Virus record (IMG/VR): IMGVR_UViG_3300032277_000023
Coordinates: 1 to 39,481 of that record
DNA length: 39,481 bases
From: a virus
Lineage: Duplodnaviria > Caudoviricetes
Direction: 5' to 3' (one strand)
Within the stretch, counting starts at the first letter, position 1. Each line of letters opens with the position of its first letter. A program made the position numbers and the translations under genes. A model generated the notes under the pieces. That model did not search any database. It was not told the origin of the DNA and worked only from the letters and a program-made list of their open reading frames with translations. Positions 8,027 through 39,481 of the stretch are shown here, one piece after another.

Positions 8027-8031
8027 GCCCC

Positions 8032-22369: not shown

Positions 22370-22465
22370 CTAGGGTGCCTCCGTAGTGGCTGGATCGGTG
22401 TTATGGTCCATTGCGTCTATCTTCCTTCGTCCTAGCGTCATCTTACATCTTGGGCATGTTTTCAT
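22370..22465 (-). CDS. 31 aa CxxC mini-ORF (possible remnant)
   Basis: MKTCPRCKMTLGRRKIDAMDHNTDPATTEAP; ATGA overlap with polymerase stop; its TAG abuts the thyX ATG. Confidence 0.4.
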   Translation of the reverse strand: MKTCPRCKMTLGRRKIDAMDHNTDPATTEAP

Positions 22466-24411
22466 CTGTCGAAGCTCCTTGCGGTTGCGGGATCCGGAAC
22501 AAGACGGCCTCTATTACGGATCTCCCGCGCCTTTTTACTCCATGCCAGCATCGCATGAGCACCCGCCCTCATTGGCACATCTGGGATCCAACGGGAGGCG
22601 CCACGCTCCATCGACTGCACAAGCCAGTTAGCGGCTGCGTCGACTTCCGCAACAGGCACCTCCAGAATAATTTCATCGTGCACGTAGCACCACAGACCCC
22701 AGGAGTCTCGCTTCTCGGTTTCCACATCCCACAAAGCCTGTTTCGCGGCATCCGCGATCAGGCCCTGAAACATGGTGTTAGCCCGTTGACAATAGCCCGT
22801 CCCACCTCGGCGTCGGCCGCTGAAAGTCTGGGTCACGGCCCCCCGATGGTCCGACGCCCACCGGAAATAGGCAGCAAGGCCCCAGCTTTCTTTGAACCTG
22901 CCTAGGAGCTCCTTTGCGCGGCCCTCGGATACGTTGATCCCGTAGCCCGCCAAATAGTCCACCATCGCCGAGGCGCCGAGGCCCCCAGGGGCCCCGAAGT
23001 TCACTCCTTTGGCCGATTGGCGAGCGTCGGCCCACGGACCATCCAGGGTTCCCGCTTGGTGGGCCTCGAGAATCTGGGCGTATGTGGTCCCGTCGTCCAG
23101 CACATCGGCAGCAAATTTACAATGGGGGTCCCCGGCCGGGTCCTCCTGATAGAATTCCGCGAACCGCGACTCACCGAACAAGTCCAAACACACCTGGCCC
23201 AGGCCCCTGAGTTCGGCCGTGTCGTAATCCGCCGCGACGAGTGCCATGCCCGGACGCGCACAATAGATCTCGCGCATTCCCGCACGCCTAGGCAGGTTCT
23301 GGACGTTGGGCCCCGAGCTCGACGTGCGCCCCGTCTCTTTGAGCGTGTGGTAGCGCGACTGGATGGGGTGGTCCTCGGCGTGGGCCGCGATAACCGGCGC
23401 GATGTAGGTCTTTACCATTTTCTCGGCCGTCGTGAGTTTGGACCACCGGACCAGGGCGTCTGGGGCCGATTCGAAAGCCGCGGCAACGGCCAACGTGCCC
23501 GCGTCCGTTTTGGGCGTCCCCTTGTCTGTGCGTGGGACCGCTTGGCCCTCGGCATCGAATGCTGCAGCAACCAGGGCCCGGCATTCTTTGGCGTTTTTGG
23601 TCATGACCTCCGGGTTTTTGGTCTTCCACTTGCGTTTCATTAGGCCGGCTTCGAGCAACGCGGCCCGATGGCCCTGGGCTTCCGCGTCGAGCTCCTCTTT
23701 AAGGCGGCTAGCGTGGGCCGCGTCGACCCCCATTCCCCGGCGCGACATCGATTCAAGCGCGTAGGATGCGCGGACCTGAAACGCTTCGTCGGGGCTAATT
23801 CGAAGGTCGTTTGGGCCGATGGACGGGTGTCGCGGGGCCTTGCGTCGCTGTGCACGCATTAGCGGAACCAGGTGTTTCACGTCGTCGAGCGCATAGGCGC
23901 GGGCACGTTCGGGCCACTGGTCCACGGGAAACGGCAACAGTTCGCCGTAGCGCATACGCCACCCGTCGTCACCTTTGTCCATCGGCTCGGTGCCTAGGTA
24001 GCGTTGGCATTGGCCGTCCAAACCGAATTGGCGTTTCGTTACCCCGAGACCGTGGATAACGTAGCCCATATCTAAGGGGCTCGCGATTCCGATCAATTCT
24101 TCCCTGCGCTGGGTACACACGAATTTGCCGGCCCGGAGCCCGTCGATGATCCACGACGCATCGGCACCAATCGAATGGAGATAGTCGCGGATAACGATGA
24201 GGTCGAAGGCGACGTTCTGGGCCACAAGGTAGCCGCGTTGTACGGCTTTCTGCAAACAGGACACCCAGCGTGCAGCGTCGTTTGCGTGATACAGGTCAGA
24301 CCCAATAGCCACACACACTAGGCGTTGGGCTGGGCTCGCGTCGGTTTCGGTGTCCCATCCTGTGAATTCGGCATTGTGCGGGATCGCTGGTTCGGGGTGC
24401 AATAGAGTCAT
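22462..24411 (-). CDS. polA: DNA polymerase, family A (3'-5' exonuclease + polymerase)
   Basis: Exo WDTET, NVAFDL, YALDD; TGRTSSSGPNVQNLP; motif A ADYDTAELR; motif B RQSAKGVNFG; motif C VHDEI. Confidence 0.95.
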   Translation of the reverse strand: MTLLHPEPAIPHNAEFTGWDTETDASPAQRLVCVAIGSDLYHANDAARWVSCLQKAVQRGYLVAQNVAFDLIVIRDYLHSIGADASWIIDGLRAGKFVCTQRREELIGIASPLDMGYVIHGLGVTKRQFGLDGQCQRYLGTEPMDKGDDGWRMRYGELLPFPVDQWPERARAYALDDVKHLVPLMRAQRRKAPRHPSIGPNDLRISPDEAFQVRASYALESMSRRGMGVDAAHASRLKEELDAEAQGHRAALLEAGLMKRKWKTKNPEVMTKNAKECRALVAAAFDAEGQAVPRTDKGTPKTDAGTLAVAAAFESAPDALVRWSKLTTAEKMVKTYIAPVIAAHAEDHPIQSRYHTLKETGRTSSSGPNVQNLPRRAGMREIYCARPGMALVAADYDTAELRGLGQVCLDLFGESRFAEFYQEDPAGDPHCKFAADVLDDGTTYAQILEAHQAGTLDGPWADARQSAKGVNFGAPGGLGASAMVDYLAGYGINVSEGRAKELLGRFKESWGLAAYFRWASDHRGAVTQTFSGRRRGGTGYCQRANTMFQGLIADAAKQALWDVETEKRDSWGLWCYVHDEIILEVPVAEVDAAANWLVQSMERGASRWIPDVPMRAGAHAMLAWSKKAREIRNRGRLVPDPATARSFDR

Positions 24412-26941: not shown

Positions 26942-27099
26942 GGCGCGGCCTCCATATTTACTACCAACGCAATGACGGCAATCCACAGAACTAGAAGCTG
27001 AATTCGCTGCATCAGAATCACGGTCCTGTAGTATTTCAGGCGGTCTGTGATCGTCGTCAAGGCTTCAATTGCGCGTTGGGTCTGGTTTTCTTGGCTCAT
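26938..27099 (-). CDS. Small membrane protein (53 aa)
   Basis: ATG at 27099 with AGGA; C-terminal TM IQLLVLWIAVIALVV. Confidence 0.55.
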   Translation of the reverse strand: MSQENQTQRAIEALTTITDRLKYYRTVILMQRIQLLVLWIAVIALVVNMEAAP

Positions 27100-27283
27100 G
27101 GGGTATCCTGTCCGTTCTGTGGGCCACGCTATCCTGGAAGATTCGCTGCCTATCAAGGTATTGCCTAAAGTACCTCGTGTCATCGATAGCCTGGCCTAGT
27201 GCCTGTATGCGCTCGTTGTCCGTTGCACCGTACATCTGGCCCAATCGGTTTAGGTATGCCTGATACAATAATTCGTTATTCAT
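27065..27283 (-). CDS. Hypothetical protein (72 aa)
   Basis: ATG at 27283 with AAGGAG RBS, ATGA overlap with primase stop. Confidence 0.55.
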   Translation of the reverse strand: MNNELLYQAYLNRLGQMYGATDNERIQALGQAIDDTRYFRQYLDRQRIFQDSVAHRTDRIPHEPRKPDPTRN

Positions 27284-29631
27284 GGGGCTCCTTGTCCAGG
27301 GATGTCTTTCCGGCTCAGACCATATCGCACTTGGCCCCCGGTTGTCACGCTCCGGATTGCGTTTCCGCCGGGCATGGCCCTCAATTTCCGGATTAGTTGT
27401 TTCGGTCGGAGTTCCCGTGGTGGGGAAATCGCATTCGACGCGCACCATGTGACCAGGGAATCCATCAATTCGCGCGACGTGGGCAAACGGGCTTTGGTGC
27501 GGCCGTCCTCCGGGTCCACCGCGGCCCACGTATCCCCGAACCAGTCGCTGATGGGGTCGGCCTCAACGCGCCATTCTTCCAGGGCATCCACCGCGGAATC
27601 GGGCATCGTGTAGGCCCCCTGGGCCAGCAGCCGCCTCAGGCCCTCAAACGCCCACGCATAGATTCCCGGCAATTCGGCGCGACACCGGCCCACAAAATCG
27701 GTACGCCGGCCCGCTGGCGTGGACTCCTCATCGAACGCACGGTTGAAGCTGAGGACCAGGAATTTGCGCCAGTAGCCCTTGGTGTTGTCTCCCGATTCCC
27801 ACGGACTGTTGACTGCCCAGACGTGGGCCGCCGTGGGCCGAAACGAAAACGGGGCCTCGCGAATCGGCCGAGCCTCGATCTTGTCGCCTGAGATGATCGC
27901 TTTGATGACCTCGGGACTCATGGCCCTATTGGTCGGGGCCTCGGCACACAGATTCACCGCGGCCGACGCTAAAGCGGCCTTGGCGTAATTGCCACCGGAC
28001 CCACCCCACGACTGGGGCGTCTGGCTAACGGTGGCGCCGTCGGGGAAAAGGAGCTCCAGGATCTTGATCACGGTCGATTTGCCGTTGGAGCCCGAGCCAC
28101 TTAGGACCAGGGCCCGGTCATATTCGGTCGCTACGCCACCAATGGCCGCCCCTAGAAATTCTTGGAAAGCCTTAATCTTTTCAGCCTTGTCACGGTCATC
28201 CCGGAAAACCGCACCCATCACGTCGAGCCAGGCCGGACACGTAGCCTCCGGGTCCCAGTCGACAGGGACGGTGAATGTCGCTTTGTTTCGCGGTGAATGT
28301 GGCCGGAGCTCCAGGCTCGATTCCGCCGACTCCAGGCTAACGAACCCGTTGCCGAACGCAACGCCGGGCGTCCGCACGTTGAAAAACGATTCGTCGAACA
28401 GGCTCCATTCGACCGCCTTGGCCACGTCGGACGTCTGGCGCGTCGAGCGTCGGAAAACCCGGCGTTTCTGGCCCGTGCCGATGATGCCGCCGTCGAGGGC
28501 CTCCAACGTGTCCCAGACATCGGAGCGGGGACGCGGTGACCAGGTGCCCCGGCCCTCGACATAGGACCAAAACGCGCCGCGCGTATGGACGCAGTGGTCT
28601 TTGGATCCCCAGCGGTCCACGACCCAGTCAACCAATTGGCTGTCGCTATCGTCGTCGAGGGTGATAGGCTGGGCCTCGAGGTCACCAAGGTCCGCGTAGG
28701 ATTCCGGAATCCCGTGGCGTTGAAGCTGTAGCCGGGTTAGTTTCTCGGCCAGCGACTCGCGACGCCGGGCCACCTCGAACGGGTGGGGGTCCATCGCGGC
28801 GTGCGACTGGTCAAAAAGTGCCGCCGTGGTGTCAGGGTCCAGGCCAGGATGCTCCTCAACGATGGCCGTGGCAATTTTCAGGCGCCACAGGTCCCGCTCC
28901 CCTGGGTCCGAATATGGACGCCCGACTAGCGCATCCCCCATGCGCCGGCCGATTTCCGCGGCTACCATGTTGGTACGTTTCCGGGCCAGGCGGTCCGCGA
29001 TGTCGCGCAGCGTTAGTTCGTCGGCCTGTTGCGTCTGGATACCGTAAACGTCGGCCGGTTTGGCGTGTCTCCACATTTCGGACACGTCGAGGGGATTACC
29101 CGGTTCGACGTGGAACGTGTGGACGACATCCGATCCCGAGGCCCACCCCGGCAAAAAATAGATCCTGTCCGCATTTTTGCACGCTGGATCGTTGGCCCCC
29201 CCGGATGCCCGATTTAGCGCGGTCCACGTCGAGGGCCACGATTTGGCGTCGACGGGGGTTGCCAGGGGGCTAACGACTCGCCAACATCCCCGGCCCCCCT
29301 TGGCCTCGGTCATATGGGACGCGGTTGTGTGGACCAGATACGCGGCTCCCTGGGCCTTGAGCCACCCCGTAACACCGAACAGGGTCTCAGGAGTTTCGGC
29401 GTCCAGGTCCCATACCGCACAGGTCACGTTCGCGATATTCGCTTTTGTGTGGCGGGTTTCCGGTGGCCGCGATGCCGGGCTAAACGCTTCGTGACTCAGT
29501 TTGATGAAGTGGTCACGCTCGCGATGGGATGCGCGGAAACGCGCGACGAGGGCCGACCACGTGGTGGACTCGGTTGGACTCGTCTTGTCGGTGGCACCGT
29601 TCAGGTATGTGATTTCAAGGGCTTGCGTCAT
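27280..29631 (-). CDS. Primase-helicase (prim-pol N-terminus, P4/D5-like SF3 helicase C-terminus)
   Basis: VWDLD, HTTASH, WRVVSPL, DPACKNADRIYFLP; VAFGNG, Walker A GSGSNGKST, KAIISGDKIEAR, WAVN. Confidence 0.9.
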   Translation of the reverse strand: MTQALEITYLNGATDKTSPTESTTWSALVARFRASHRERDHFIKLSHEAFSPASRPPETRHTKANIANVTCAVWDLDAETPETLFGVTGWLKAQGAAYLVHTTASHMTEAKGGRGCWRVVSPLATPVDAKSWPSTWTALNRASGGANDPACKNADRIYFLPGWASGSDVVHTFHVEPGNPLDVSEMWRHAKPADVYGIQTQQADELTLRDIADRLARKRTNMVAAEIGRRMGDALVGRPYSDPGERDLWRLKIATAIVEEHPGLDPDTTAALFDQSHAAMDPHPFEVARRRESLAEKLTRLQLQRHGIPESYADLGDLEAQPITLDDDSDSQLVDWVVDRWGSKDHCVHTRGAFWSYVEGRGTWSPRPRSDVWDTLEALDGGIIGTGQKRRVFRRSTRQTSDVAKAVEWSLFDESFFNVRTPGVAFGNGFVSLESAESSLELRPHSPRNKATFTVPVDWDPEATCPAWLDVMGAVFRDDRDKAEKIKAFQEFLGAAIGGVATEYDRALVLSGSGSNGKSTVIKILELLFPDGATVSQTPQSWGGSGGNYAKAALASAAVNLCAEAPTNRAMSPEVIKAIISGDKIEARPIREAPFSFRPTAAHVWAVNSPWESGDNTKGYWRKFLVLSFNRAFDEESTPAGRRTDFVGRCRAELPGIYAWAFEGLRRLLAQGAYTMPDSAVDALEEWRVEADPISDWFGDTWAAVDPEDGRTKARLPTSRELMDSLVTWCASNAISPPRELRPKQLIRKLRAMPGGNAIRSVTTGGQVRYGLSRKDIPGQGAP

Positions 29632-29664
29632 ATTGGCCGCGTCCTGGGTTCGGGTCTAGCCTCG

Positions 29665-29693
29665 GTTCTACGCCGATTTCGGGCGGGCGTCAA
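29665..29693 (-). promoter_or_regulatory. Putative leftward promoter for replication block
   Basis: TTGACG-N17-TAGAAC (imperfect -10) just upstream of primase. Confidence 0.4.
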
Positions 29694-29854
29694 GAGCCGA
29701 GCGGGAGTTTCGAGAGTTAGTTTCGGGCCCCCGCCAAACACTATAAGAGAATATAACATGTTTCAAATCCCTATAGCGCTTTAAGAGGACCCCCGAATCT
29801 ACCACCGTAAGTCACGCAACGTGACGCGCGACACACGAAAAACCGAACCGCGGC

Positions 29855-29884
29855 TTGACACGCAAAACACAGCCCCCTACAAAT
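29855..29884 (+). promoter_or_regulatory. Putative rightward early promoter
   Basis: TTGACA-N17-TACAAAT; near-duplicate at 35744-35773; ATG follows 6 nt after the hexamer. Confidence 0.65.
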
Positions 29885-29889
29885 GGAGC

Positions 29890-30123
29890 ATGATAGAGCT
29901 ATTTATTCCAGGAACCCGAAACGACGGCTCCGGCGAAGGCTCCGGCGAAGGCTGGGGCTCCGGCGACGGCTCCGGCGACAGCTACGGCTCCGGCTGGGGC
30001 TACGGCTCCGGCTGGGGCTACGGCTCCGGCTCCGGCTGGGGCTACGGCTCCGGCTCCGGCTGGGGCTACGGCTCCGGCTGGGGCTACGGCCGCGGCTCCG
30101 GCTCCGGCTTCGGCTCCGACTAA
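29890..30123 (+). CDS. MIELF-(Gly-X)n peptide, copy 1 (77 aa)
   Basis: MIELFIPGTRNDG then GS/GW/GY dipeptide repeats. Confidence 0.75.
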   Translation: MIELFIPGTRNDGSGEGSGEGWGSGDGSGDSYGSGWGYGSGWGYGSGSGWGYGSGSGWGYGSGWGYGRGSGSGFGSD

Positions 30124-30154
30124 CTAACTAACCCACACCCAGGAACGACCCACC

Positions 30155-30217
30155 ATGAACCTCTTCGACGATCCCGAATCCCCCGTGGACGCCTTGGACC
30201 AGGACCCCGAGGAATGA
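30155..30217 (+). pseudogene. 20 aa internally deleted paralog of 30510-30914
   Basis: MNLFDDPESPVDALDQDPEE matches the N-terminus (NLFDDPE) and C-terminus (VDALEQDPEG) of the 134 aa gene. Confidence 0.7.
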
Positions 30218-30513
30218 TAGAGCTATTTATGCCAGGCACCGAAAACGATGGCTCCGGAGACGGCTTCGGCTCGGGCCGCGGCTACGGTAAAGGCTCGGGC
30301 CGTGGCTCCGGTAGAGGCTCCGGCTCCGGCTCCGGCTGGGGTTACGGCTCCGGCTCAGGCTGGGGTTACGGCTTCGGATTCGGCTCCAGCTCCGGCTACG
30401 GTAAAGTCTCCGGAGACGGCTCCGGTAGAGGCTCCGGTAGAGGCTCCGGTAGAGGCTCCGGCTCCGGTAAAGGCTTCGGCTCCGGCCAACTCAACCCAGG
30501 ATACCAACCATGA
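30214..30513 (+). CDS. MIELF-(Gly-X)n peptide, copy 2 (99 aa)
   Basis: MIELFMPGTENDG then GS/GR/GK/GW/GY/GF repeats; ATGA overlaps at both ends. Confidence 0.75.
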   Translation: MIELFMPGTENDGSGDGFGSGRGYGKGSGRGSGRGSGSGSGWGYGSGSGWGYGFGFGSSSGYGKVSGDGSGRGSGRGSGRGSGSGKGFGSGQLNPGYQP

Positions 30514-30914
30514 AAAACCTCTTCGACGACCCAGAACAACCCGACCCCTTCGCCGACGCCCTAGACGCGGCCAACGAGGCCCAGGTAACGGCCGAAAAAG
30601 CCTCCGAGCGCATGGCCCAGCTGGTGGACCGTATCCGGGAACTCGAATCCGGCCACGACGCTTTGCTGTCCCAGATGCGGGACATCCGCCAGACGACCGC
30701 GGACATCATGCGCCGCTTCGACCAGTACACCGACCGTGTGGACCTGTTGTCTGGGCTGGATCCCGACTGTAATACAGCAAACCCGTGCACGGGATGTCCC
30801 GATTGCGGTGTAACGCGGCACAGCGTACCCCCTCCAGCCAGCGCCATGCGGGCGTCACGTGAAAGGGCTCATGCCGCGGCCGTGGACGCCTTGGAACAGG
30901 ACCCCGAGGGATGA
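30510..30914 (+). CDS. Coiled-coil protein with Cys cluster
   Basis: 134 aa; heptad region then C....PCTGCPDC. Confidence 0.7.
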   Translation: MKNLFDDPEQPDPFADALDAANEAQVTAEKASERMAQLVDRIRELESGHDALLSQMRDIRQTTADIMRRFDQYTDRVDLLSGLDPDCNTANPCTGCPDCGVTRHSVPPPASAMRASRERAHAAAVDALEQDPEG

Positions 30915-31111
30915 TAGAGCTATTTATTCCAGGAAACCGAAACGAGGGCTCCGGCTCCGGCTACGGATACGGATGGGGCTGCGACTCCGGCGACGGCCGC
31001 GGCTGCGGCGACGGCTGGGGCTGGGGCAACGGATCCGGCTGGGGCTCCGGCAACAGCTCCGGCAGCGGATCCGGCTACGGCTACGGCTCCGGCTTCGGGG
31101 ATATCGAATGA
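30911..31111 (+). CDS. MIELF-(Gly-X)n peptide, copy 3 (66 aa)
   Basis: MIELFIPGNRNEG then Gly-X repeats including two Cys; ATGA overlaps at both ends. Confidence 0.75.
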   Translation: MIELFIPGNRNEGSGSGYGYGWGCDSGDGRGCGDGWGWGNGSGWGSGNSSGSGSGYGYGSGFGDIE

Positions 31112-31437
31112 ATGCCAATCCACCGTGGCGTTGGACGTGCAACGGCGACGCCTTCGAACTGATCGCGACACGTGACCTGAAATCGGCCTGTCCCGGAGCC
31201 GTCGTAATCCGCGTAACCGGCCGCAATGGCGCCTATTTGGTGCGGGGCTCCGGTCTGTTCGTGACGCTCCGCATCGGGGCGCCCTGCCCCGTGCGTCGAA
31301 GCCGCAACCCGAACCGTCCCCACTATCCCCGCGAACCCAAACGCATCAAATCATTCCAGGACCTACTAAAATCGGCCGAGGCCATCGCCCGGCATCACGG
31401 CCTACACCGACCACCCGAAACGAGGATAAACCGATGA
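31108..31437 (+). CDS. Hypothetical protein (109 aa)
   Basis: ATG at 31108 overlapping copy 3 stop. Confidence 0.55.
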   Translation: MNANPPWRWTCNGDAFELIATRDLKSACPGAVVIRVTGRNGAYLVRGSGLFVTLRIGAPCPVRRSRNPNRPHYPREPKRIKSFQDLLKSAEAIARHHGLHRPPETRINR

Positions 31438-31730
31438 AACCCGTACAAGGCCCCAGCCACCTAGACATCCACCAACGTGCTAGGCTAGAACACCTGGAAC
31501 AGGAACATAGGGGAGCGAGAATCGTGATCTGGTATCTGTTGGTCGCATCCGTGGCCGCCGTAGTGACCATTGCATACCAACGGGACCAGATCGACACCAT
31601 GCGCGCGGTCCACGGGTCCGAGTGTTCCGACGTCATCCGTCGAGCGATGGTGTTCGATTGGGGTCCACGGAATACGTGGCGTATGACCGCGTGTGGGTTC
31701 CGCGTTACCATGGCCGTGGCCGACCGATGA
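31434..31730 (+). CDS. Single-TM hypothetical protein
   Basis: GAGGA RBS; TM IVIWYLLVASVAAVVTIAY; 98 aa. Confidence 0.6.
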   Translation: MKPVQGPSHLDIHQRARLEHLEQEHRGARIVIWYLLVASVAAVVTIAYQRDQIDTMRAVHGSECSDVIRRAMVFDWGPRNTWRMTACGFRVTMAVADR

Positions 31731-31975
31731 TAGAGCTATTTATTCAAGGGAACCACAATAACGGCCGCGGCTCCGGATGGGGCTCCGGCTCCGGCTCCGG
31801 CGACGGCTCCGGCTGGGGCTCCGGTGAAGGCTACGGCAACGGCTACGGCTGGGGCTCCGGCGACGGCTGGTGCTCCGGCTCCGGCACCGGCTCCGGCAAC
31901 GGCTCCGGCCGCGGCAACGGCTCCGGCCGCGGCAACGGCTCCGGCTACGGCAACGGCTCCGGCTTTCGACGCTAA
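31727..31975 (+). CDS. MIELF-(Gly-X)n peptide, copy 4 (82 aa)
   Basis: MIELFIQGNHNNG then GS/GN/GW/GR/GY repeats; ATGA overlap upstream. Confidence 0.75.
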   Translation: MIELFIQGNHNNGRGSGWGSGSGSGDGSGWGSGEGYGNGYGWGSGDGWCSGSGTGSGNGSGRGNGSGRGNGSGYGNGSGFRR

Positions 31976-31983
31976 CAGAATCG

Positions 31984-31992
31984 TGATACAAT
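31984..31992 (+). promoter_or_regulatory. Possible extended -10 promoter
   Basis: TGATACAAT in the short gap before the phosphoesterase; no good -35. Confidence 0.35.
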
Positions 31993-32020
31993 GGGCCCCT
32001 GAGCCCTAGCCGGAGAAACC

Positions 32021-32809
32021 GTGGCCCCAACCGTAACCCTCGACGTGATTTCAGATATCCATTTCGGAGCCGGGTCCGAATCCCATGCTGCTACCGAATC
32101 CTATGCCCAGTTCGCCGCGGTCCACCCACCAGACATCCGCGTGTGGCTTGGGGACATCGCCGAAATGGAATCGTGTTCGGCCCATGGTGGGGCCCGCGAA
32201 CCGCCCACCCTTGCCGACGACATCACGGCCACCGTGGACGGGATCGACCGTATTCAGGACTGGGCCCCCGTTGAACGCGAAATATGGGTCCCTGGCAACC
32301 ACGAAGACCGATATGCCCGACGACTAACCCAGGACGTTGGCAACCTGGCCAACGGACTCCCTACCCTCGAGGATCTGCTGGAGCTTGGCCGCCGCGGATT
32401 CCAGATGCCAGGCGACTCGTGGTCGTTTCGTGGCGTCCTGTTCACGCATGGATTCGTCCGATCCCAGCACCACGGGGCCCGCATGCTGCAATTGTTTCCG
32501 GATTCCGCGGCCGTAGTGTATGGACATCATCACCGGGCTGGCGTGACATGGCGCAAGCGAGCGAATTACGGCGGCCCCACCCCTCTGACTCCGGACGCCC
32601 AGTCCAAAGGGAGCCGGATGGCCATCGCGAACCCATGTCTAAGGGACCTGGACCCGACGTGGATCCGCGGCCCATCGGGCTGGGTTAACGGGTTCACCCG
32701 GCTCGTTTTTCATGAAGCCGGATTCAACCACCAAACCCATCTAATGCACGGCGAACGTTGCGCGTTCTATGCCGAGGGCCAGTTGTGGGACCGGGAGTCG
32801 TTACTATGA
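32021..32809 (+). CDS. Calcineurin-like metallophosphoesterase
   Basis: SDIH, LGD, GNHE, THG, GHHH motifs in canonical order; GGAG RBS. Confidence 0.9.
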   Translation: MAPTVTLDVISDIHFGAGSESHAATESYAQFAAVHPPDIRVWLGDIAEMESCSAHGGAREPPTLADDITATVDGIDRIQDWAPVEREIWVPGNHEDRYARRLTQDVGNLANGLPTLEDLLELGRRGFQMPGDSWSFRGVLFTHGFVRSQHHGARMLQLFPDSAAVVYGHHHRAGVTWRKRANYGGPTPLTPDAQSKGSRMAIANPCLRDLDPTWIRGPSGWVNGFTRLVFHEAGFNHQTHLMHGERCAFYAEGQLWDRESLL

Positions 32810-33018
32810 TAGAGCTATTTATTCCAGGGTCCACTAACGACGGAGACGGAGACGGCGACGGAGGGGGCAACGGCTACGGCTACGGCTCCGGCAACGGCTG
32901 GGGCAACGGCTACGGCTACGGCTACGGCGACGGCTACGGCGACGGCTACGGCTACGGCTACGGCGATGGCGACGGCTACGGCTCCGGCTCCGGCTGGGGC
33001 TCCGGTGCACCATGCTAG
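32806..33018 (+). CDS. MIELF-(Gly-X)n peptide, copy 5 (70 aa)
   Basis: MIELFIPGSTNDG then GD/GY/GN repeats; ATGA overlap upstream. Confidence 0.75.
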   Translation: MIELFIPGSTNDGDGDGDGGGNGYGYGSGNGWGNGYGYGYGDGYGDGYGYGYGDGDGYGSGSGWGSGAPC

Positions 33019-33257
33019 AGGACATCCGGGAATACCTGCCGTTGATCCTGGTGGAATTGTTCATGGCCATAGCGTGGCGCCTGATCGTCGTCGAGGGGCG
33101 TTGGTTCGGGCGCACCATGCCGGACGAGGAGCCCGACGCGGACGCGGACGCGGATGAATGGATCGCAAACCCCGACGCCGTTGTCGAGCTACAAGACGAC
33201 GTGGCCCAATTAACGCAGCGCGTCATGGAACTAGAACTAGCGCAGGAGACCGAATGA
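33012..33257 (+). CDS. Small membrane protein with acidic coiled coil
   Basis: N-terminal hydrophobic segment, acidic linker, LQDDVAQLTQRVMELE. Confidence 0.6.
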   Translation: MLEDIREYLPLILVELFMAIAWRLIVVEGRWFGRTMPDEEPDADADADEWIANPDAVVELQDDVAQLTQRVMELELAQETE

Positions 33258-34348
33258 GACCTAATCCCCATGTACAACGGGCCCTGAGTGCCCTATCCCA
33301 ATCCCACGGTGTCGACGGCCGCGCGGCCAGTGGCAGAACCCTAAGCACGCTGCAACGTGCCATGATAGCCGTAGCCGGAACCATCGTGACCAGCGGGTGT
33401 TATGTGCCGGACCAGTCGACGCTTGCCATTATCCCCGAGCGTTACGGATTCATCGGCGAAGAGCACTATATGCAGGTTAGCTCCCACGTAACTGATGGGG
33501 TCGAGGTGGACCTACACACCGACATCCAGACCAGCGCGACCGACGACGGTGACTGGGTCGGCGTGACCATGGACTCAACAACGCCCCGCGTCTATGTGGT
33601 GGCCGAGTCCTACGCCAGGGAAGGCGAAGACCGCCAAGCCTGGCACGCGGGCCTCTTCACCGGGGTCCAAAAAGCCACCGTGGACGGCGGCGCCACCGTC
33701 GTGAACATGGGAGACAGCATCACGGCCAACGGCTCCATCACCGCCCGAATCCAAAGCCATCTAGCAGAGCTCGGCGTCACGGTCCACAACCACGCCGTTA
33801 GCGGCAAAACGTGGCAATGGTATGCGGCCGATGTGGAGGGAATCGCCGAAACGGACGCGGCCATTGCCCGAGCCCCCGACGTAGTGACCTGGATGCTAGG
33901 CACCAACGGCCTATTCACCGCCTACCCGAGCGCATCCGGGCTGACCGGCTACCCAGCATACGTTGCAGCCGAAATCGACGCAGCCGAGCGCCTTTTTGCC
34001 CGGTTCCCCGCGACCACCGTGCACCTGGTTGCGCCACCACCTCCGGGAAACGACGTAGAATCAACCTACCTGGTGTATGAGCCATATGACGAGCCCCACC
34101 ACCCGAACGCCGGCATCAGCACCCGACAACGCTGGTTGTTTCGGACGCACGACGTTATGACCGAGTATAAGGCAGCCTGGGCCGACCGGGACGACGTTGT
34201 CTTGGTTCCAGCTCGGTCATCGATCCACCGGACCGACGGATACGGCGGGGACACCGTGCACCCTGGAGTCATCGGGCTAAATCAGTTAGGCGACGCCTTC
34301 GCGCCTGCTATTCTGTGGGCTATCCAGCGACAACGGGGGACACCGTGA
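33254..34348 (+). CDS. SGNH/GDSL hydrolase, possibly a lipoprotein
   Basis: GDSIT, AVSG, LGTN, DTVHP blocks; hydrophobic stretch ending TSGC near the N-terminus; ATG at 33254. Confidence 0.85.
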   Translation: MRPNPHVQRALSALSQSHGVDGRAASGRTLSTLQRAMIAVAGTIVTSGCYVPDQSTLAIIPERYGFIGEEHYMQVSSHVTDGVEVDLHTDIQTSATDDGDWVGVTMDSTTPRVYVVAESYAREGEDRQAWHAGLFTGVQKATVDGGATVVNMGDSITANGSITARIQSHLAELGVTVHNHAVSGKTWQWYAADVEGIAETDAAIARAPDVVTWMLGTNGLFTAYPSASGLTGYPAYVAAEIDAAERLFARFPATTVHLVAPPPPGNDVESTYLVYEPYDEPHHPNAGISTRQRWLFRTHDVMTEYKAAWADRDDVVLVPARSSIHRTDGYGGDTVHPGVIGLNQLGDAFAPAILWAIQRQRGTP

Positions 34349-34797
34349 ACCGACGAATCAAACGAGCCATCCAACGCGCAGCCTTTGTTGCCGACGTCTT
34401 GACCAACCGGGCCCTAAAATGGTCCATCCAAACCCTGTTGCCCACGCTAACGGCCACGGCCTTTGGCGTCCTGGCCTACGGGGCACTCATCGCGGCCATC
34501 GTGGTGCTGAGCTCGTGTGCCGCGCCTCAGGAGCCCGACCCCACCGAGCCGGACCCGGCGTGCTCCCAAGTCATTGCGGCGGCGTGCACCAACGCGGCCC
34601 AGTGCGTCCCGGTCGATGATGCTGGGGCCGAGTATGCTCGGTGTGTCGCGTTTTTTGGGTCCATTTTCGCGCCCAACCCGTTGTGCGTCGGGGTTCGGGT
34701 GACGGGAAACGTGGATCCGTGCGCCGAATCGCTGGCATCGTGTGCGCCGGAAATCGTGATTCGTGCGCAGTGTGATAAGGTCGAGTGGGGCCCTTGA
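34345..34797 (+). CDS. Cys-rich putative lipoprotein
   Basis: GTG at 34345; hydrophobic segment ending LSSC lipobox; eight further Cys. Confidence 0.7.
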   Translation: MNRRIKRAIQRAAFVADVLTNRALKWSIQTLLPTLTATAFGVLAYGALIAAIVVLSSCAAPQEPDPTEPDPACSQVIAAACTNAAQCVPVDDAGAEYARCVAFFGSIFAPNPLCVGVRVTGNVDPCAESLASCAPEIVIRAQCDKVEWGP

Positions 34798-34822
34798 CAC
34801 CTCCCACCCCGTCCAATAGGCT
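34794..34822 (+). promoter_or_regulatory. sigma70-type promoter with leaderless geometry
   Basis: TTGACA-N17-TAGGCT-N6-ATG; no SD before ATG 34829. Confidence 0.7.
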
Positions 34823-34828
34823 CGCCTC

Positions 34829-35713
34829 ATGAAAAAAGAAACCCGAAAACTCCCTACCTTCGCAACCCACGCCGGATTCACACGGGAACTCATCGTCCCG
34901 AAGCTTCGGGTCCTCAACCTTAGCGGCGGACGCCAATCGACCACCATTGCCGAAATGATAATTCACGGGGACCTACCCCCAGTAGACCTGTGTTTGACCG
35001 CGGATACCGGCATGGAGCACGAAGCCACCTATGCCCATATCAAGGACCTACACAAGCGCCTAAACCAAGCCGGAATCAAGGCCGCGGTAGCACCGGGACC
35101 TAACCTATGGGATGATCTGGTGACGCTGGGGCCGCGCAAAGCGACTCGCCTAGACAATCCGCCCTATTGGGTACAGAAGGAGAACGGGGGCCGCGGCCGT
35201 CTGGTCCAGAAGTGTACCAAACACTACAAAATAGCCCCCATGGACCGGTATATCCGGCAGGAATTGCTCCGAACCCATGGAATCAACCCGGAGGCCCGGC
35301 GCATCGGGCACAACATCGTGGAGAAGTGGATCGGGTTTAGTGCAGACGAGACCAGCCGGATGAAGCTTCCGGGGCAAAAATACGTATACTTCGGGTTCCC
35401 GCTCGTGGATCTGGGATTCAACAAGGACGACTGCATATCCTATCTGGAGTACAGGGGCCGTCCGGTGCCCCCTCCCTCCGTGTGTGTGGCGTGTTTCAGC
35501 AACCCGGCCGCATCCTATAAGACCATGGGACCCACCGATTTCGAGCGGGCCCGCGCCGTAGACGAGAGCCTAAGTCAATGGGCACAAATCGGAATCAAGG
35601 GAGATGTGTACGTCTCAAAAACGCTTCGCCGACTAAGCGACATCCGGGCCGACGAAGAAACCGAACCGGACACCGACGAAGGATCGTGCGATGGCGGATA
35701 CTGCTTCGTGTGA
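34829..35713 (+). CDS. PAPS-reductase-like (PP-loop adenine nucleotide alpha-hydrolase) protein
   Basis: LSGGRQS PP-loop, ADTGME, CT..YKI.P, WIGFSADE..R, FPL, SVCVAC, C-terminal CDGGYCFV. Confidence 0.85.
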   Translation: MKKETRKLPTFATHAGFTRELIVPKLRVLNLSGGRQSTTIAEMIIHGDLPPVDLCLTADTGMEHEATYAHIKDLHKRLNQAGIKAAVAPGPNLWDDLVTLGPRKATRLDNPPYWVQKENGGRGRLVQKCTKHYKIAPMDRYIRQELLRTHGINPEARRIGHNIVEKWIGFSADETSRMKLPGQKYVYFGFPLVDLGFNKDDCISYLEYRGRPVPPPSVCVACFSNPAASYKTMGPTDFERARAVDESLSQWAQIGIKGDVYVSKTLRRLSDIRADEETEPDTDEGSCDGGYCFV

Positions 35714-35743
35714 CCAGAATCACAGGAATCCGCACCCAAGGGG

Positions 35744-35773
35744 TTGACACCCGAAAACCGAGCCCCTACAAAT
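35744..35773 (+). promoter_or_regulatory. Putative early promoter (duplicate of 29855-29884)
   Basis: TTGACAC..AAAAC..AGCCCC-TACAAAT with 17-nt spacer. Confidence 0.65.
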
Positions 35774-35821
35774 AGTCCAGGGCCACCAACGGCCCAGAAA
35801 CCGAACCAAGGAAACCCGAAC

Positions 35822-36136
35822 ATGTTCAAAGACTACATTGGAAAATTCGTTATCGTGCGCAGCGACAAGGACGGCGTCTGGGCCGGAACCCTGAAAGCCC
35901 TCGAGGGCTCCACCGAGGGCGAAAGCCGCATGACCGCCTCCCTCGAAAACTGCCACCTGGTCCACTCGTGGCAATCGACGGCGGCAACCGCTGGCCTGGC
36001 CGTGTTCGGGCCCGGTGAGGGCTCCAACGTCAGCGACGCAACCCCAGCCCACATTTGCGCGGACGTGGTCGGATTGTCGGTCGCCACGGCATCCTCCAAG
36101 AAGCGGTTCGCCGACATCAAAAAGTGGAACCCATAA
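35822..36136 (+). CDS. DUF6948-like small beta-barrel phage protein
   Basis: YIGKFVIVRS..DGVWAGTL...L.N......W......GLAV.G pattern; AAGGA RBS; family recalled from memory, not searched. Confidence 0.7.
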   Translation: MFKDYIGKFVIVRSDKDGVWAGTLKALEGSTEGESRMTASLENCHLVHSWQSTAATAGLAVFGPGEGSNVSDATPAHICADVVGLSVATASSKKRFADIKKWNP

Positions 36137-36140
36137 GCCA

Positions 36141-36362
36141 GTGATAGAGCTATTTATGTCAGGAAACCGAAACGACGGCTCCGGCAAGGGCTCCGGCTCC
36201 GGCAAGGGCTACGGCTCCGGACGCGGCTACGGCTCCGGCCGCGGCTCCGGCCACGGCTCCGGCTCCGGCTCCGGCAAGGGCTCCGGCCACGGCGACGGCT
36301 ACGGCGACGGCTACGGCCGCGGCGCCGGGCCCAAAACCGAACCGAAAGAAAACGAAACATGA
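36141..36362 (+). CDS. MIELF-(Gly-X)n peptide, copy 6 (73 aa, GTG start)
   Basis: (M)IELFMSGNRNDG then GS/GK/GR/GH/GY repeats; 4 nt after DUF6948-like stop. Confidence 0.7.
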   Translation: MIELFMSGNRNDGSGKGSGSGKGYGSGRGYGSGRGSGHGSGSGSGKGSGHGDGYGDGYGRGAGPKTEPKENET

Positions 36363-37051
36363 AAACCGAAATCATCCAAAAAATCCAAGAGCTCCTAGCG
36401 ACCCCCCCAACCGCGGACGTGTTGGAGGCTGCCACGGATGCCGCAATCGAGCACCTAGACATCGACGGCGACGAACTCAGCATCATCTGGGACACCAAAA
36501 AACCCCGACGTGACGCAATCGAGGTCCCCGGCTTCCGCGCGTCCCAGGTGCCATGCATCATCCTGCCGAACACCAGAGGCACCGCACTGAGTCCGGCCGA
36601 AAAAGCCGAAATCCTGGCCGCCGTGGACTGCAACACCCTGACGTGGGACGGCCGAACCGGAGCCCACTGGATCGTCATCAAGATGCGCCACCTCAAAGGT
36701 CTCCGGGCCTGGGCAATCGTCGACAAATCGGCAACCCTAGGCGAGGACCCCACCCGTATCCTCACCGAATCAGGCCCCCTTGCCCTGTATGCGCTCGAAA
36801 CCGAGGGCCACCTAGTTCGGGAGGGCCGCCTAGCCCGCCATTGTATCGGAAGCAGGCAGATGGGCTACAGGAGGTCCCTAGGGTCCGTGGACATCGCCTA
36901 CGTATCCGTGCGCCGAAAAGAAGCCCCCGAACTCCCAGTGGCCACGGCCGAGATCCGCGGAACCCGCATCATCCAGATCCAAGGCCGCAGCAATTCGGCC
37001 GTTAGCCAGGACACCCGCGCGATCGTCGAGCGCTACGCAGCTACGCGATGA
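36359..37051 (+). CDS. PcfJ-like domain protein
   Basis: C-terminal L..EG....HCIG...SVR......ATAEI....IQIQGRSN pattern. Confidence 0.75.
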   Translation: MKTEIIQKIQELLATPPTADVLEAATDAAIEHLDIDGDELSIIWDTKKPRRDAIEVPGFRASQVPCIILPNTRGTALSPAEKAEILAAVDCNTLTWDGRTGAHWIVIKMRHLKGLRAWAIVDKSATLGEDPTRILTESGPLALYALETEGHLVREGRLARHCIGSRQMGYRRSLGSVDIAYVSVRRKEAPELPVATAEIRGTRIIQIQGRSNSAVSQDTRAIVERYAATR

Positions 37052-37221
37052 TCGAACTATTCATACCAGGGACCACCAACTACGGCACCGGCACCGGCGA
37101 CGGCTACGGCTGGGGCTCCGGCGAAGGCTACGGCGGGGGTAACGGCTGGGGCTCCGGTGACGGCTGGGGCGACGGCTACGGCCACGGCTACGGCCACGGC
37201 ACCGGCTCCGGCTCCAACTGA
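37048..37221 (+). CDS. MIELF-(Gly-X)n peptide, copy 7 (57 aa, not in ORF track)
   Basis: MIELFIPGTTNYGTGTGDGYGWGSGEGYGGGNGWGSGDGWGDGYGHGYGHGTGSGSN; ATGA overlap upstream. Confidence 0.75.
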   Translation: MIELFIPGTTNYGTGTGDGYGWGSGEGYGGGNGWGSGDGWGDGYGHGYGHGTGSGSN

Positions 37222-37239
37222 ACCGAAGGAAAACGAAAA

Positions 37240-37635
37240 ATGCCAAAGAACAACCTGCCCCTAACAGGGCCCACCGACCCCCAAAAACTGGCCCTCATCC
37301 TGGCCACCGTGTTCCAGGCGGCCAGCGTACCCTACACCAGGGGCCAATTCGACCCAGGAACGGCAACCATCGACCGTTGGCAACGCCTGACATGCGACAA
37401 CCCGGAGGCCATCGGACTCGTTTTCTGGGAGCTCACGCAAACGATGCTGATGCGGGATGCGGTTGCCCTATACCTAGGTCTTGCACAGGCCGCCGTGGCG
37501 CACGACACAGATGGCGTAATCCCAGACGTGGCCGTGGACCGAATAGCAGGGCACTGCATGCTCGGTAAGGCGCCGCATGCCCTGGGAATGACGGTTCTAG
37601 GGGCGGCATGGGCCGCGGAAAAGAGGCAACGATGA
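37240..37635 (+). CDS. Hypothetical protein
   Basis: AAGGA RBS; 131 aa; ATGA overlap downstream. Confidence 0.6.
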   Translation: MPKNNLPLTGPTDPQKLALILATVFQAASVPYTRGQFDPGTATIDRWQRLTCDNPEAIGLVFWELTQTMLMRDAVALYLGLAQAAVAHDTDGVIPDVAVDRIAGHCMLGKAPHALGMTVLGAAWAAEKRQR

Positions 37636-38081
37636 GTCAGGAATTCAAAATTGGCGACAAAGTCCGTTTAACGGATCCGCATTTCCGAACAGACGAGGGG
37701 AAATTATGCCCCCTGTCAGACGACTGGAACGGAGTAGAAGGGACCGTGGCGGGTAACCCGGACCGGGAAGGGGATATCCCCATCCGTCTAAGCGAATTTC
37801 GATGTGAGCGGGTGTCTCCGCATTGCCTGGTGCGTATCACGGACCCCGTATCCAACCCATCCCACTACAAGGCCCCAGGGCTCGACGTCGAGTGCATGGA
37901 CGTCATCCAGGCATTAGGGCTGGACTTCCCAACTGGTTCGGCGCTAAAATACATCTGGCGTCACCGAAACAAGGGCCGCCCACTCCAAGACCTCAAAAAA
38001 GCAAGAGCCAACCTTGACCGAGCAATCCAAGCCATCGAAAACGCCGATCCCCCCTCAAAAAGCGATGCTACGGACACCTGA
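37632..38081 (+). CDS. DUF3310 (T7 gp1.7-like nucleotide kinase) domain protein with N-terminal SH3/KOW-like domain
   Basis: FKIGDKVR N-terminus; DPVSNPSHY..ECMDVI...F..GSALKYIWR...KG...DLKKA. Confidence 0.85.
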   Translation: MSQEFKIGDKVRLTDPHFRTDEGKLCPLSDDWNGVEGTVAGNPDREGDIPIRLSEFRCERVSPHCLVRITDPVSNPSHYKAPGLDVECMDVIQALGLDFPTGSALKYIWRHRNKGRPLQDLKKARANLDRAIQAIENADPPSKSDATDT

Positions 38082-38170
38082 CGGCCGTTTGGTGCTGTGC
38101 TGGGTCCACGTGGCCGAGCAAATCGAACCAGAACCCCAAAAAGAGCCCCACTGAAAAGGAAGCAGGAACC

Positions 38171-38389
38171 ATGGCCCAAAAACCCGAAATCGGACAAAAA
38201 GTCCACTGCAAATACACCGACGCCAACGGAACGTGGCACCATGAAACCCTGGTGGTGCGTGAAATCGGCGACGGGTCCTACTGGTGGGACCTCCGGGCCA
38301 GCTACGGCCCCGAAAGCGCTAACACGGTCTACGTGGGCCGCGACTGTTGGATTTCGGCCGACCTGGCCCCAGAGCCCGTGCATGCGTGA
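38171..38389 (+). CDS. Hypothetical protein (72 aa)
   Basis: AGGA RBS; EIGQKV small beta-barrel-like start. Confidence 0.6.
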   Translation: MAQKPEIGQKVHCKYTDANGTWHHETLVVREIGDGSYWWDLRASYGPESANTVYVGRDCWISADLAPEPVHA

Positions 38390-38567
38390 CCCAACCCCAT
38401 CCCAAATCGCAATCCTGAGGTCCCAGCTCCATTTCAGCCGCCACACGATCGCGGCCCTGCACGAAGAAAACCGAAACCTAGCCCAGCAAGTGGACCTTTT
38501 GAAGTCGATCTGTATCGCTGGCGGATTTCTGTTGCTAGCGGCCGTGTGTGCTGCTATTTGGACCTAG
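38382..38567 (+). CDS. Coiled-coil protein with C-terminal TM (61 aa)
   Basis: ATG at 38382; LHEENRNLAQQVDLL then ICIAGGFLLLAAVCAAIW. Confidence 0.55.
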   Translation: MRDPTPSQIAILRSQLHFSRHTIAALHEENRNLAQQVDLLKSICIAGGFLLLAAVCAAIWT

Positions 38568-38599
38568 GGCCACCGAGCCCCCAACGCGAAAGACGAAAC

Positions 38600-38782
38600 A
38601 TGCCAACCGGACCCCATAAAATCACAATGAGACGAAGGCCGGCTGCCAAGCGCCCCATGTGGGTAGTTGAGAAGGACGGCGACACCTGGATAACCGACAC
38701 GGTTACCTTGGACGCTGAAAACTTCCACAAAAATGCCGAGATCCACATCATTGTGGACCCCAACCCGAAAGACGAGCCATGA
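38600..38782 (+). CDS. Hypothetical protein (60 aa)
   Basis: ATG at 38600 after A/C-rich leader; ATGA overlap downstream. Confidence 0.55.
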   Translation: MPTGPHKITMRRRPAAKRPMWVVEKDGDTWITDTVTLDAENFHKNAEIHIIVDPNPKDEP

Positions 38783-39390
38783 ACCCGATCCCAAACGACC
38801 CATCCGAAATCAGCTACCTCCTTGTTGATCACCCGAAATGGGGTCACGGCCTTATCAAACGAGTCCGCGGCAGACGATGCACGGGCCGAATTAGCCGAGC
38901 CGTGATACTGAAGCGCCCAGGAAAACCGGATCGCACATTCGCGTCGATGTCGGAAGCCAGGGACGCCATGGGTGTGACGGCCATCCGTCCGGGACTCGTG
39001 GACCACCCGACCATGCTCCAGGAGGGGGCCCGCCTGGTCAGTGCGTCGGCATCCCGCATCAAAGGCGCTATTCCCCGAGTGATCGATCAGCGCTCGGCGC
39101 CTAGTGAAGTTAAGCCCACGGAGCCTATGAGGCCGACTACAGCGGACTTCATTGTGCGGCGTCGAGAACCTCCTATCCGAACCACCAAACCCGAGGCCAC
39201 CGAGCCAACGGTCCGCCGAATCACCGGCAAGGCCCTCCGTAACTTGGCCTACCTGGTGAAAGCTGTGGACGTGGCAACGGATGCCGTGGCCGATTGTGAC
39301 GATGTGGCGGCGGCCGAGGTCAAGACGGTGCTGGATGCCCTGGTGGCCAAGCGGGCCAAGACGGTGCTGGGTCTGGAGGTGCGACTGTGA
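38779..39390 (+). CDS. Hypothetical protein (203 aa)
   Basis: Coupled start; VDHPKWGHGLI resembles the SH3-like V.HP.(F/W)G.G motif. Confidence 0.6.
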   Translation: MNPIPNDPSEISYLLVDHPKWGHGLIKRVRGRRCTGRISRAVILKRPGKPDRTFASMSEARDAMGVTAIRPGLVDHPTMLQEGARLVSASASRIKGAIPRVIDQRSAPSEVKPTEPMRPTTADFIVRRREPPIRTTKPEATEPTVRRITGKALRNLAYLVKAVDVATDAVADCDDVAAAEVKTVLDALVAKRAKTVLGLEVRL

Positions 39391-39481
39391 AGGTGGATAA
39401 GTACGTGCAATCAACCACTTAGACCACCTACCCACAACGGAACAGGACCCCCAGTATTCTCACAGGGGGCCCATTTCGCGG

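What the first reader, a model, noticed from the sequence alone, without database searches (positions are those of the whole stretch)
37048..37071. Copy 7 keeps MIELFIPG despite four synonymous changes
Seen: the consensus leader is ATG ATA GAG CTA TTT ATT CCA GGR, while copy 7 is ATG ATC GAA CTA TTC ATA CCA GGG. That is four third-position changes and no amino-acid change in 8 codons. Inference: the leader is selected as a peptide, so the family is translated and is not just a DNA repeat. It also identifies the Gly frame as the real one.
Basis: partly seen in the sequence, partly recalled or inferred. Interest (0 to 1): 0.72.

Follow-up and report, generated by a model that had tools for sequence, protein, structure and literature searches.

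The report
Seven-copy phage glycine-repeat peptide family
A phage carries seven small open reading frames for glycine-alternating peptides with one shared start sequence; they are likely translated and likely an amplified form of a widespread, apparently unstudied partner gene of a barrel protein predicted to have an Sm-like fold, which the shared start would help them bind.

Summary
Alone this is modest evidence: P about 0.03-0.06 after allowing for seven copies. Other copies carry I6M, P7Q and P7S, and without copy 7 the leader shows no signal (2 synonymous, 3 non-synonymous). Translation is better supported by the bodies: 202 of 208 Gly slots are kept, with 27 synonymous against 6 non-synonymous departures. 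Five of seven starts also overlap the upstream stop (ATGA). Copy 6 follows a DUF6948 gene predicted to have an Sm/LSm fold. A (Gly-X)n ORF follows DUF6948 in 76 of 80 other viral loci, each with its own genome-specific leader; 6 of 80 have extra copies. One low-depth contig from a co-occurring strain carries a copy-6-like leader at the copy-7 locus, so cassettes are likely swapped or converted. That would explain both the near-identity of six leaders and the outlier. No MIELF homologue was found outside this population, so the proposed dN/dS test could not be run. The scan has noted the DUF6948/Gly-X module before on other DNA. New here: seven dispersed copies, Trp/Arg-rich tails and a divergent barrel. 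Function is untested.

The parts
37048..37071 (+). Leader of copy 7 (MIELFIPG), the divergent-synonymous allele
   Evidence: identical in X1 and X3 contigs, a second allele in X3
37048..37221 (+). (Gly-X)n ORF, copy 7, 57 aa; start overlaps the PcfJ-like stop (ATGA)
29890..30123 (+). (Gly-X)n ORF, copy 1, 77 aa; ATG 7 nt past a promoter-like -10 box (possible leaderless start)
30214..30513 (+). (Gly-X)n ORF, copy 2, 99 aa (I6M); -4 overlaps at both ends
30911..31111 (+). (Gly-X)n ORF, copy 3, 66 aa; -4 overlaps at both ends
31727..31975 (+). (Gly-X)n ORF, copy 4, 82 aa (P7Q); -4 overlap upstream
32806..33018 (+). (Gly-X)n ORF, copy 5, 70 aa; -4 overlap with a metallophosphoesterase gene, -7 with the next gene
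36141..36362 (+). (Gly-X)n ORF, copy 6, 73 aa (GTG start, I6M, P7S); 4 nt after DUF6948, the canonical position of this gene in other phages
35822..36136 (+). DUF6948 gene (104 aa), predicted Sm/LSm fold, divergent member
   Evidence: Pfam PF22253 31.1 bits against cut-off 27; model pLDDT 92.2; VIA-align Z 8.6 to Lsm1-7
36359..37051 (+). PcfJ-like gene between copies 6 and 7; its stop is supplied by the copy-7 leader
30155..30217 (+). 20-codon internally deleted duplicate of ORF 30510-30914; both end in the same 30 nt joined to a leader, marking a gene+cassette tandem duplication
29855..29883 (+). Promoter-like site (TTGACA, 17 nt, TACAAA) before copy 1
   Evidence: pattern match and repeat D20; not listed by the stricter scan
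35744..35772 (+). Second copy of the promoter-like site, before DUF6948
   Evidence: (D20)

Best explanation
The seven ORFs share a start M-I-E-L-F-x-x-G-x-x-N and a strict (Gly-X)n body; they are likely translated, likely spread by duplication and gene conversion from the partner gene of the DUF6948 barrel (predicted Sm fold), and the start is likely kept at the peptide level as a tag that would dock on that barrel. Shown: the ORFs, their junctions, the synonymous excess, the gene pairing in other phages, and two alleles at the copy-7 locus. Inferred: ribosomes finishing the upstream gene re-initiate at the overlapping ATG, and the leader's first bases supply that upstream stop, so a copy placed behind any early gene is expressed at once. 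Exchange between copies keeps six leaders nearly identical in DNA, rare codons included. Copy 7 is an older or imported allele that escaped this homogenisation, and so shows what selection preserves. Inferred and weakest: the short hydrophobic leader would add a beta-strand to the barrel, and the disordered Gly-X tails would act as variable arms of an early host-directed complex.
For: Leader: 6 synonymous: 3 non-synonymous changes in codons 2-8 (P 0.011-0.030). Bodies: 202 of 208 Gly slots kept, 27 synonymous against 6 non-synonymous departures from GGC, or 11:6 counting each codon once per copy (P 0.008); no stop in 524 codons, 118 of them one step from a stop. Junctions: -4 overlap upstream in 5 of 7 copies, and in 13 of 23 junctions of the operon. 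Identity between copies starts at the ATG: the 30 nt upstream agree at 3-12 positions, except the duplicated pair 2/3 at 28. Gene pair: (Gly-X)n ORF directly after DUF6948 in 8 of 9 phage records, upstream in the ninth, and in 76 of 80 viral loci. Six of 80 loci hold two or more such ORFs, mostly with a shared genome-specific leader. Barrel: Sm/LSm fold, Z 8.6, rmsd 2.2 A over 67 residues. Exchange: an X3 contig runs from the PcfJ-like gene into a copy-6-like leader (record 11). Co-divergence: the barrel lacks many family residues, and the tails have 10.7% Trp and 7.5% Arg in X slots against about 0% and 0.1% in the other loci.
Against: Without copy 7 the leader has 2 synonymous: 3 non-synonymous changes (P 0.42). 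Changes among copies are not independent, and repeat slippage inflates the body counts. Leaders in other phages are not conserved in sequence, and in L096, L126 and L166 paralogous leaders differ by non-synonymous changes. Six of the seven copies are not next to the barrel gene. The second allele rests on one contig of depth 3.3, although three of its upstream variants also occur in an X2 contig and one in protein P0005; its first four codons cannot be read from the output. The 80 comparison loci were ranked by likeness to a Ralstonia phage query and are distant from this barrel. The structural model leaned on an alignment of 17-35% identical relatives, and Foldseek gave no match at E <= 0.001. 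There is no proteomic or ribosome-profiling evidence.
Confidence: 0.55

Rival explanations
1. The ORFs are translated, but the leader matters as an mRNA junction, not as a peptide. It supplies the upstream stop (TGA then TAG), an overlapping start and an AU-rich, weakly folded initiation region. Amino-acid identity is a by-product of recent copying.
For: Leader GC is 33-42% against 51% for the first 24 nt of other genes and 61% for the contig; rare codons such as ATA (4% of Ile codons) are kept in 6 of 7 copies. There is no SD-like motif before copies 4, 6 and 7, and start regions fold weakly (-3.2 to -7.2 kcal/mol). Identity begins exactly at the ATG. Short overlaps are required for coupling (PMC10666635, abstract).
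Against: An mRNA-level constraint gives no reason for all four copy-7 changes to be synonymous, one of which removes the second stop. N11 and G8 are invariant while codons 9, 10 and 12 vary freely.
Confidence: 0.25
2. The copies are mainly DNA repeats that act as recombination sites for shuffling early genes (PeSL-like); the peptides have no function.
For: The allele swap at the copy-7 locus, the tandem duplication of a gene plus cassette, and a different copy-6 body in X2 and X3 (joint 36196 to 29941).
Against: There is a synonymous excess at Gly slots and an unbroken frame in 7 of 7 copies, and the same ORF type sits single-copy beside DUF6948 in most other phages. The two gene-sized deletions seen in strains (34791-35719 in X3, 38599-38777 in X2) do not end in these repeats. 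No promoter-terminator unit lies in the repeat.
Confidence: 0.12
3. The peptides are RiPP-like precursors (conserved leader, variable Gly/Ser/Cys core, as recalled for microcin B17) that are modified by an enzyme.
For: The leader-plus-variable-core layout, with Gly/Ser-rich cores and occasional Cys.
Against: No modifying enzyme, protease or exporter family among 49 ORFs scanned with Pfam and NCBIfam. The conserved neighbour in other phages is DUF6948. Cys occurs in only 4 body codons.
Confidence: 0.04
4. Another frame is the real one (Arg-Leu repeats in +2, Ala-X in +1, or an antisense frame).
For: The +2 frame is open through the body in 4 of 7 copies and +1 in all seven. One antisense frame shares third positions.
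Against: +1 opens with a stop in all copies. +2 changes 3 of 7 residues in copy 7 and has stops in 3 copies. Only the Gly frame has a shared start, all neighbouring genes lie on +, and homologous ORFs in other phages start in the Gly frame.
Confidence: 0.04

Closest known systems
Pfam DUF6948 (PF22253) with its unnamed downstream (Gly-X)n ORF, e.g. Ralstonia phage NK-7 XCO36016.1 plus XCO36015.1, annotated 'fibroin heavy chain-like protein'
   Same: Small barrel gene directly followed by a short leader and a strict Gly-X repeat; 76 of 80 viral loci.
   Different: Seven copies over 7.3 kb, six of them away from the barrel (at most 4 in the comparison loci, which had a median length of 14 kb, so those counts are lower bounds). 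The start lies 4 nt after the barrel's stop rather than at or before it (59 of 70 elsewhere). The tails are rich in Trp and Arg, and the barrel sits on a very long branch.
Sm/LSm/Hfq proteins with low-complexity extensions: Borg Sm proteins with amino-acid tandem repeats (PMC9879509, passages read); Acinetobacter Hfq GGFGGQ tail (PMC11617691, search listing and start of abstract only)
   Same: Sm-type core associated with a repeat-derived, probably disordered segment.
   Different: There the repeat is fused to the Sm core. Here it is a separate, multi-copy gene. RNA binding and ring formation of DUF6948 were not tested.
PeSL cassettes of T4-type phages (PMC2839356, abstract and outline seen)
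   Same: Dispersed repeats among non-essential early genes, with exchange between copies.
   Different: PeSLs are promoter/stem-loop elements. These repeats are ORFs under codon-level constraint that begin at the start codon.
Translational coupling by termination-reinitiation at ATGA overlaps (PMC10666635, abstract; PMC6728339, search listing)
   Same: -4 overlaps at 5 of 7 starts.
   Different: Here one repeated leader supplies the same junction to several unrelated upstream genes.

Membership tests
Pfam DUF6948 (ORF 35822-36136) | HMM score above the gathering cut-off | tested here: met
   31.1 bits against 27, residues 8-93
DUF6948/(Gly-X)n phage module | (Gly-X)n ORF directly downstream of DUF6948 | tested here: met
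   copy 6 starts 4 nt after the stop
DUF6948/(Gly-X)n phage module | Strict Gly at every second position | tested here: met
   202 of 208 slots
DUF6948/(Gly-X)n phage module | Acidic tail of almost only Ser/Tyr/Asp (typical trait in the comparison set) | tested here: not met
   Trp 10.7% and Arg 7.5% of X slots; 3 of 7 whole peptides net positive. Elsewhere Trp occurs in 2 of 86 bodies and none is net positive (bodies only were scored there)
Sm/LSm fold (DUF6948 product) | Five-stranded Sm-type barrel | tested here: met
   Predicted model, pLDDT 92.2; best Z 8.6, rmsd 2.2 A over 67 residues, top rows almost all Sm/LSm; Foldseek best E 5.6e-3
Sm/LSm/Hfq RNA chaperones | Ring oligomer | not tested
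   no homo-oligomer job was run
Sm/LSm/Hfq RNA chaperones | RNA binding | not testable with these tools
   needs a bench assay
RiPP precursor (microcin B17 type; features recalled) | Modifying enzyme encoded in the cluster | tested here: not met
   none among 49 ORFs; many ORFs are unassigned and the contig may be incomplete (CheckV 35%)
PeSL shuffling cassette | Promoter plus terminator stem-loop in each repeat | tested here: not met
   no such unit at the repeats
PeSL shuffling cassette | Gene gains and losses end at the repeats | tested here: inconclusive
   two gene-sized deletions end elsewhere; joints between bodies have short sides and may come from other organisms

The most novel reading that the evidence does not exclude
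One divergent Sm-fold barrel is loaded with a panel of seven peptides that share a docking tag and carry hypervariable, convertible Gly-X tails. Barrel and tails have shifted together (lost family residues; Trp/Arg-rich tails). This would be a phage system that diversifies the arms of a ring-like complex by gene conversion, to engage or decoy host factors early in infection.
Probability: 0.15. Interest if true: 0.75.

Novelty: new variant of a known kind. Interest (0 to 1): 0.42.

Why it matters
The DUF6948/(Gly-X)n pair is very common in phages (at least 7,987 barrel sequences) and I found no paper on it. This contig separates the two genes: six peptide copies lie away from the barrel, and the leader no longer overlaps the barrel's coding sequence. 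Selection on the leader can therefore be read without the confounding overlap seen in 59 of 70 other loci. That names a small testable motif (I-E-L-F, G8, N11) for binding and mutagenesis assays. The four-codon observation by itself is a modest statistic, not a discovery.

Tried and rejected
Leader homologues outside this population: none found.
- Viral contigs: 1 chance hit; 69 hits, 0 with a Gly body; 0 hits.
- Metagenomes: own contig plus 1 hit inside an unrelated opposite-strand gene.
- GTDB genomes: 26 hits, 0 with a Gly-X body.
- Profile searches: 1 unrelated protein among 1.84 billion; 29 weak hits among 3,899 candidates of 22-70 aa, Gly-X proteins with other leaders.
- None of the 7 exact peptides is in the 15-billion collection.
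Close relatives by DUF6948 or primase: no loci; one 76%-identical barrel without DNA (P0002).
Pfam, PHROGs and NCBIfam name no copy (the TrAA12 and CFAP143 rows are below cut-off). The Atlas gives only unnamed, mostly viral clusters. Rfam: no match in 27000-39481.
Complex prediction, barrel with copy-6 residues 1-40: no verdict, score 0.01; not used as evidence.
A fancied likeness of the leader to the barrel family's IEIIP strand: no profile match.
No RNA holder listed.
Whether the copy-6 leader is unchanged in X2 and X3 could not be settled: no rows were shown in 36141-36196, but 296 rows were hidden.
Joints between Gly bodies were set aside as likely repeat or foreign matches.
The DUF6948 tree is poorly resolved. 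Multi-copy loci are scattered (6 changes for 6 rows; L088 was left out of the group by oversight), which fits independent expansions but does not prove them.
The first barrel model from a 2-sequence alignment was poor (pLDDT 56.6).
Paper searches for DUF6948, phage/glycine-rich/GYGDG (42), Sm-like/phage-encoded/low-complexity/glycine (69) and phage gene conversion terms (76) returned 0 papers; the fibroin search returned 2 irrelevant listings. Subscription journals are not covered, and no supplements were read.

Full report
Setting. The window is a whole 39.5-kb virus contig of 61% GC. It has terminase, tail, CHAP, ThyX, PolA and primase genes, followed by a rightward run of small genes from 29.9 kb to the end. 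CheckV rates it 35% complete, so more copies may lie outside. The host was not determined.

The observation. A six-frame and mismatch search finds exactly seven copies of the leader, all on +, at 29890, 30214, 30911, 31727, 32806, 36141 and 37048. Copy 7 differs from the majority codons at the third base of codons 2, 3, 5 and 6, all synonymous. Contigs of runs X1 and X3 match it without a difference. About 25-31% of possible changes in codons 2-8 are synonymous, so four of four has P 0.004-0.009, or 0.03-0.06 for the best of seven copies. All seven copies together give 6 synonymous and 3 non-synonymous changes (P 0.011-0.030, omega 0.17-0.22). Without copy 7 the count is 2 and 3 (P 0.42). Codons 9-12 hold 9 non-synonymous and 2 synonymous variants, with N11 invariant. 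The conserved core is therefore M-I-E-L-F, G8 and N11, not the full octapeptide.

Are the ORFs translated? Each leader opens a 57-99 aa ORF with Gly at every second position. Of 208 Gly slots, 202 are Gly. Single-base departures from GGC are synonymous 27 times and non-synonymous 6 times, where 1:2 is expected; counting each codon once per copy to limit slippage effects gives 11:6 (P 0.008). No stop occurs in 524 codons, of which 118 are one step from a stop. Five starts overlap the upstream stop by 4 nt, copy 6 starts 4 nt after its upstream gene, and 13 of 23 junctions in the operon are -4 overlaps. Copy 1's ATG lies 7 nt past a promoter-like -10 box; the stricter scan did not list this site. 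Short overlaps are what translational coupling needs (PMC10666635, abstract). The +1 frame opens with a stop in every copy. The +2 frame changes 3 of 7 residues in copy 7 and has stops in 3 bodies. One antisense frame shares the third positions, so the four changes alone do not fix the frame; operon context does. I put translation at about 0.9. There is no direct expression evidence.

What family is it? Copy 6 follows a DUF6948 gene. In 9 phage records examined, a (Gly-X)n ORF follows DUF6948 in 8 and precedes it in 1; Ralstonia phage NK-7 annotates it as 'fibroin heavy chain-like protein'. In the best 80 of 559 confirmed viral loci, 76 have it directly downstream. Of the 4 misses, two are cut by contig ends (one shows the start of such an ORF), one has a very short version and one a looser Gly-rich ORF. 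Leaders there have a median of 8 residues, differ between genomes, and have Ile, Val or Leu at position 4 in 49 of 70; 59 of 70 start at or before the barrel's stop. Six of 80 loci hold two to four such ORFs (L088, L096, L126, L128, L155, L166), mostly with a shared genome-specific leader, and paralogous leaders there differ by non-synonymous changes. Expansion with a shared leader thus recurs, and sharing alone is explained by descent. The barrel is predicted with pLDDT 92.2 from a 103-sequence alignment and matches Sm/LSm proteins (Z 8.6, rmsd 2.2 A over 67 residues; Foldseek best E 5.6e-3). This phage's barrel, with P0002, lacks many family-conserved residues and sits on a very long branch. 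Its tails have Trp in 10.7% and Arg in 7.5% of X slots, against about 0% and 0.1% in the comparison loci.

Why six alike and one different? Identity between copies starts at the ATG; the 30 nt upstream agree at background level, except for copies 2 and 3, which come from a gene-plus-cassette tandem duplication. Related strains occur in runs X2 and X3. Of 34 variant positions in six neighbouring ORFs, 33 are synonymous. These came from the rows shown; I left out 4 rows in Gly bodies, 2 intergenic rows and 3 rows beside a compensating indel pair in the PAPS-reductase-like gene, and 296 rows were not shown. One stretch has 11 synonymous differences in 12 codons, so copy 7's divergence is within what ordinary genes show between strains here. 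Run X3 holds two forms of the copy-7 locus. One is identical to the window. The other (record 11, depth 3.3) leaves the window's sequence within codon 5 and continues in frame as M-A-G-N-Q-N-D-G-S-G, a copy-6-like leader. Three of its upstream variants are shared with an X2 contig and one with protein P0005. It is a single low-depth contig, and its first four codons cannot be read. The simplest reading is that cassettes are converted or swapped, which homogenises leader DNA including rare codons, and that copy 7 is an allele that escaped.

Mechanism. Shown: ORFs, junctions, codon statistics, gene pairing and allelic exchange (the last on thin data). Inferred: expression by re-initiation, spread by duplication and conversion, and purifying selection on the I-E-L-F/G/N core (about 0.7). 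Least secure (about 0.35): the leader docks on the barrel as a beta-strand, and the tails serve as variable disordered arms in an early host-directed complex. The main rival is that the leader is a portable AU-rich stop/start junction. The two roles can coexist.

Comparison and novelty. The nearest published analogues fuse a repeat to an Sm core: Borg Sm proteins (PMC9879509, passages) and Acinetobacter Hfq (PMC11617691, listing only). PeSLs (PMC2839356, abstract and outline) share the dispersed-repeat layout but are non-coding. My searches found no paper on DUF6948 or its partner. Earlier notes of this scan describe the same module, including five-copy arrays, on other DNA; these are unchecked and not independent support. 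The new points here are seven dispersed copies, a leader free of overlap with the barrel gene, shifted tail chemistry and evidence of allele exchange.

Verdict. Observation confirmed; interpretation partly supported; a new variant of a database-visible but apparently unstudied phage module. Interest 0.42.

Noticed in passing
window 34791-35719: A strain contig in run X3 skips the PAPS-reductase-like gene with its promoter-like site; the gene looks like an optional cassette between two promoter-like sites.
   Followed up: no
window 38599-38777: A strain contig in run X2 lacks the small ORF 38600-38782.
   Followed up: no
window 29855, 34794, 35744: Three TTGACA-17-nt promoter-like sites. The ATGs of copy 1 and of the PAPS-reductase-like gene lie 6-7 nt past the second box, suggesting leaderless starts.
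   Followed up: partly
window 30155-30217: A 20-codon remnant of ORF 30510-30914 keeps only its two ends and the ATGA overlap; it may persist as a coupling spacer.
   Followed up: partly
L155 about 7900-8800: A second, more divergent DUF6948-like gene is followed by Ser-X repeat ORFs (Ser-Trp, Ser-Arg, Ser-Gly) beside the Gly-X module.
   Followed up: no
L080, L087, L116, L121, L130, L143: In some phages the Gly-X tract is fused to a C-terminal extension of about 140-175 aa.
   Followed up: no
window 21027-24411: An MT-A70-type methyltransferase, ThyX and a PolA-family polymerase lie together on the minus strand; with the PAPS-reductase-like gene this hints at DNA modification.
   Followed up: no
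window 33254-34348: A GDSL/SGNH hydrolase gene sits among the early genes.
   Followed up: no
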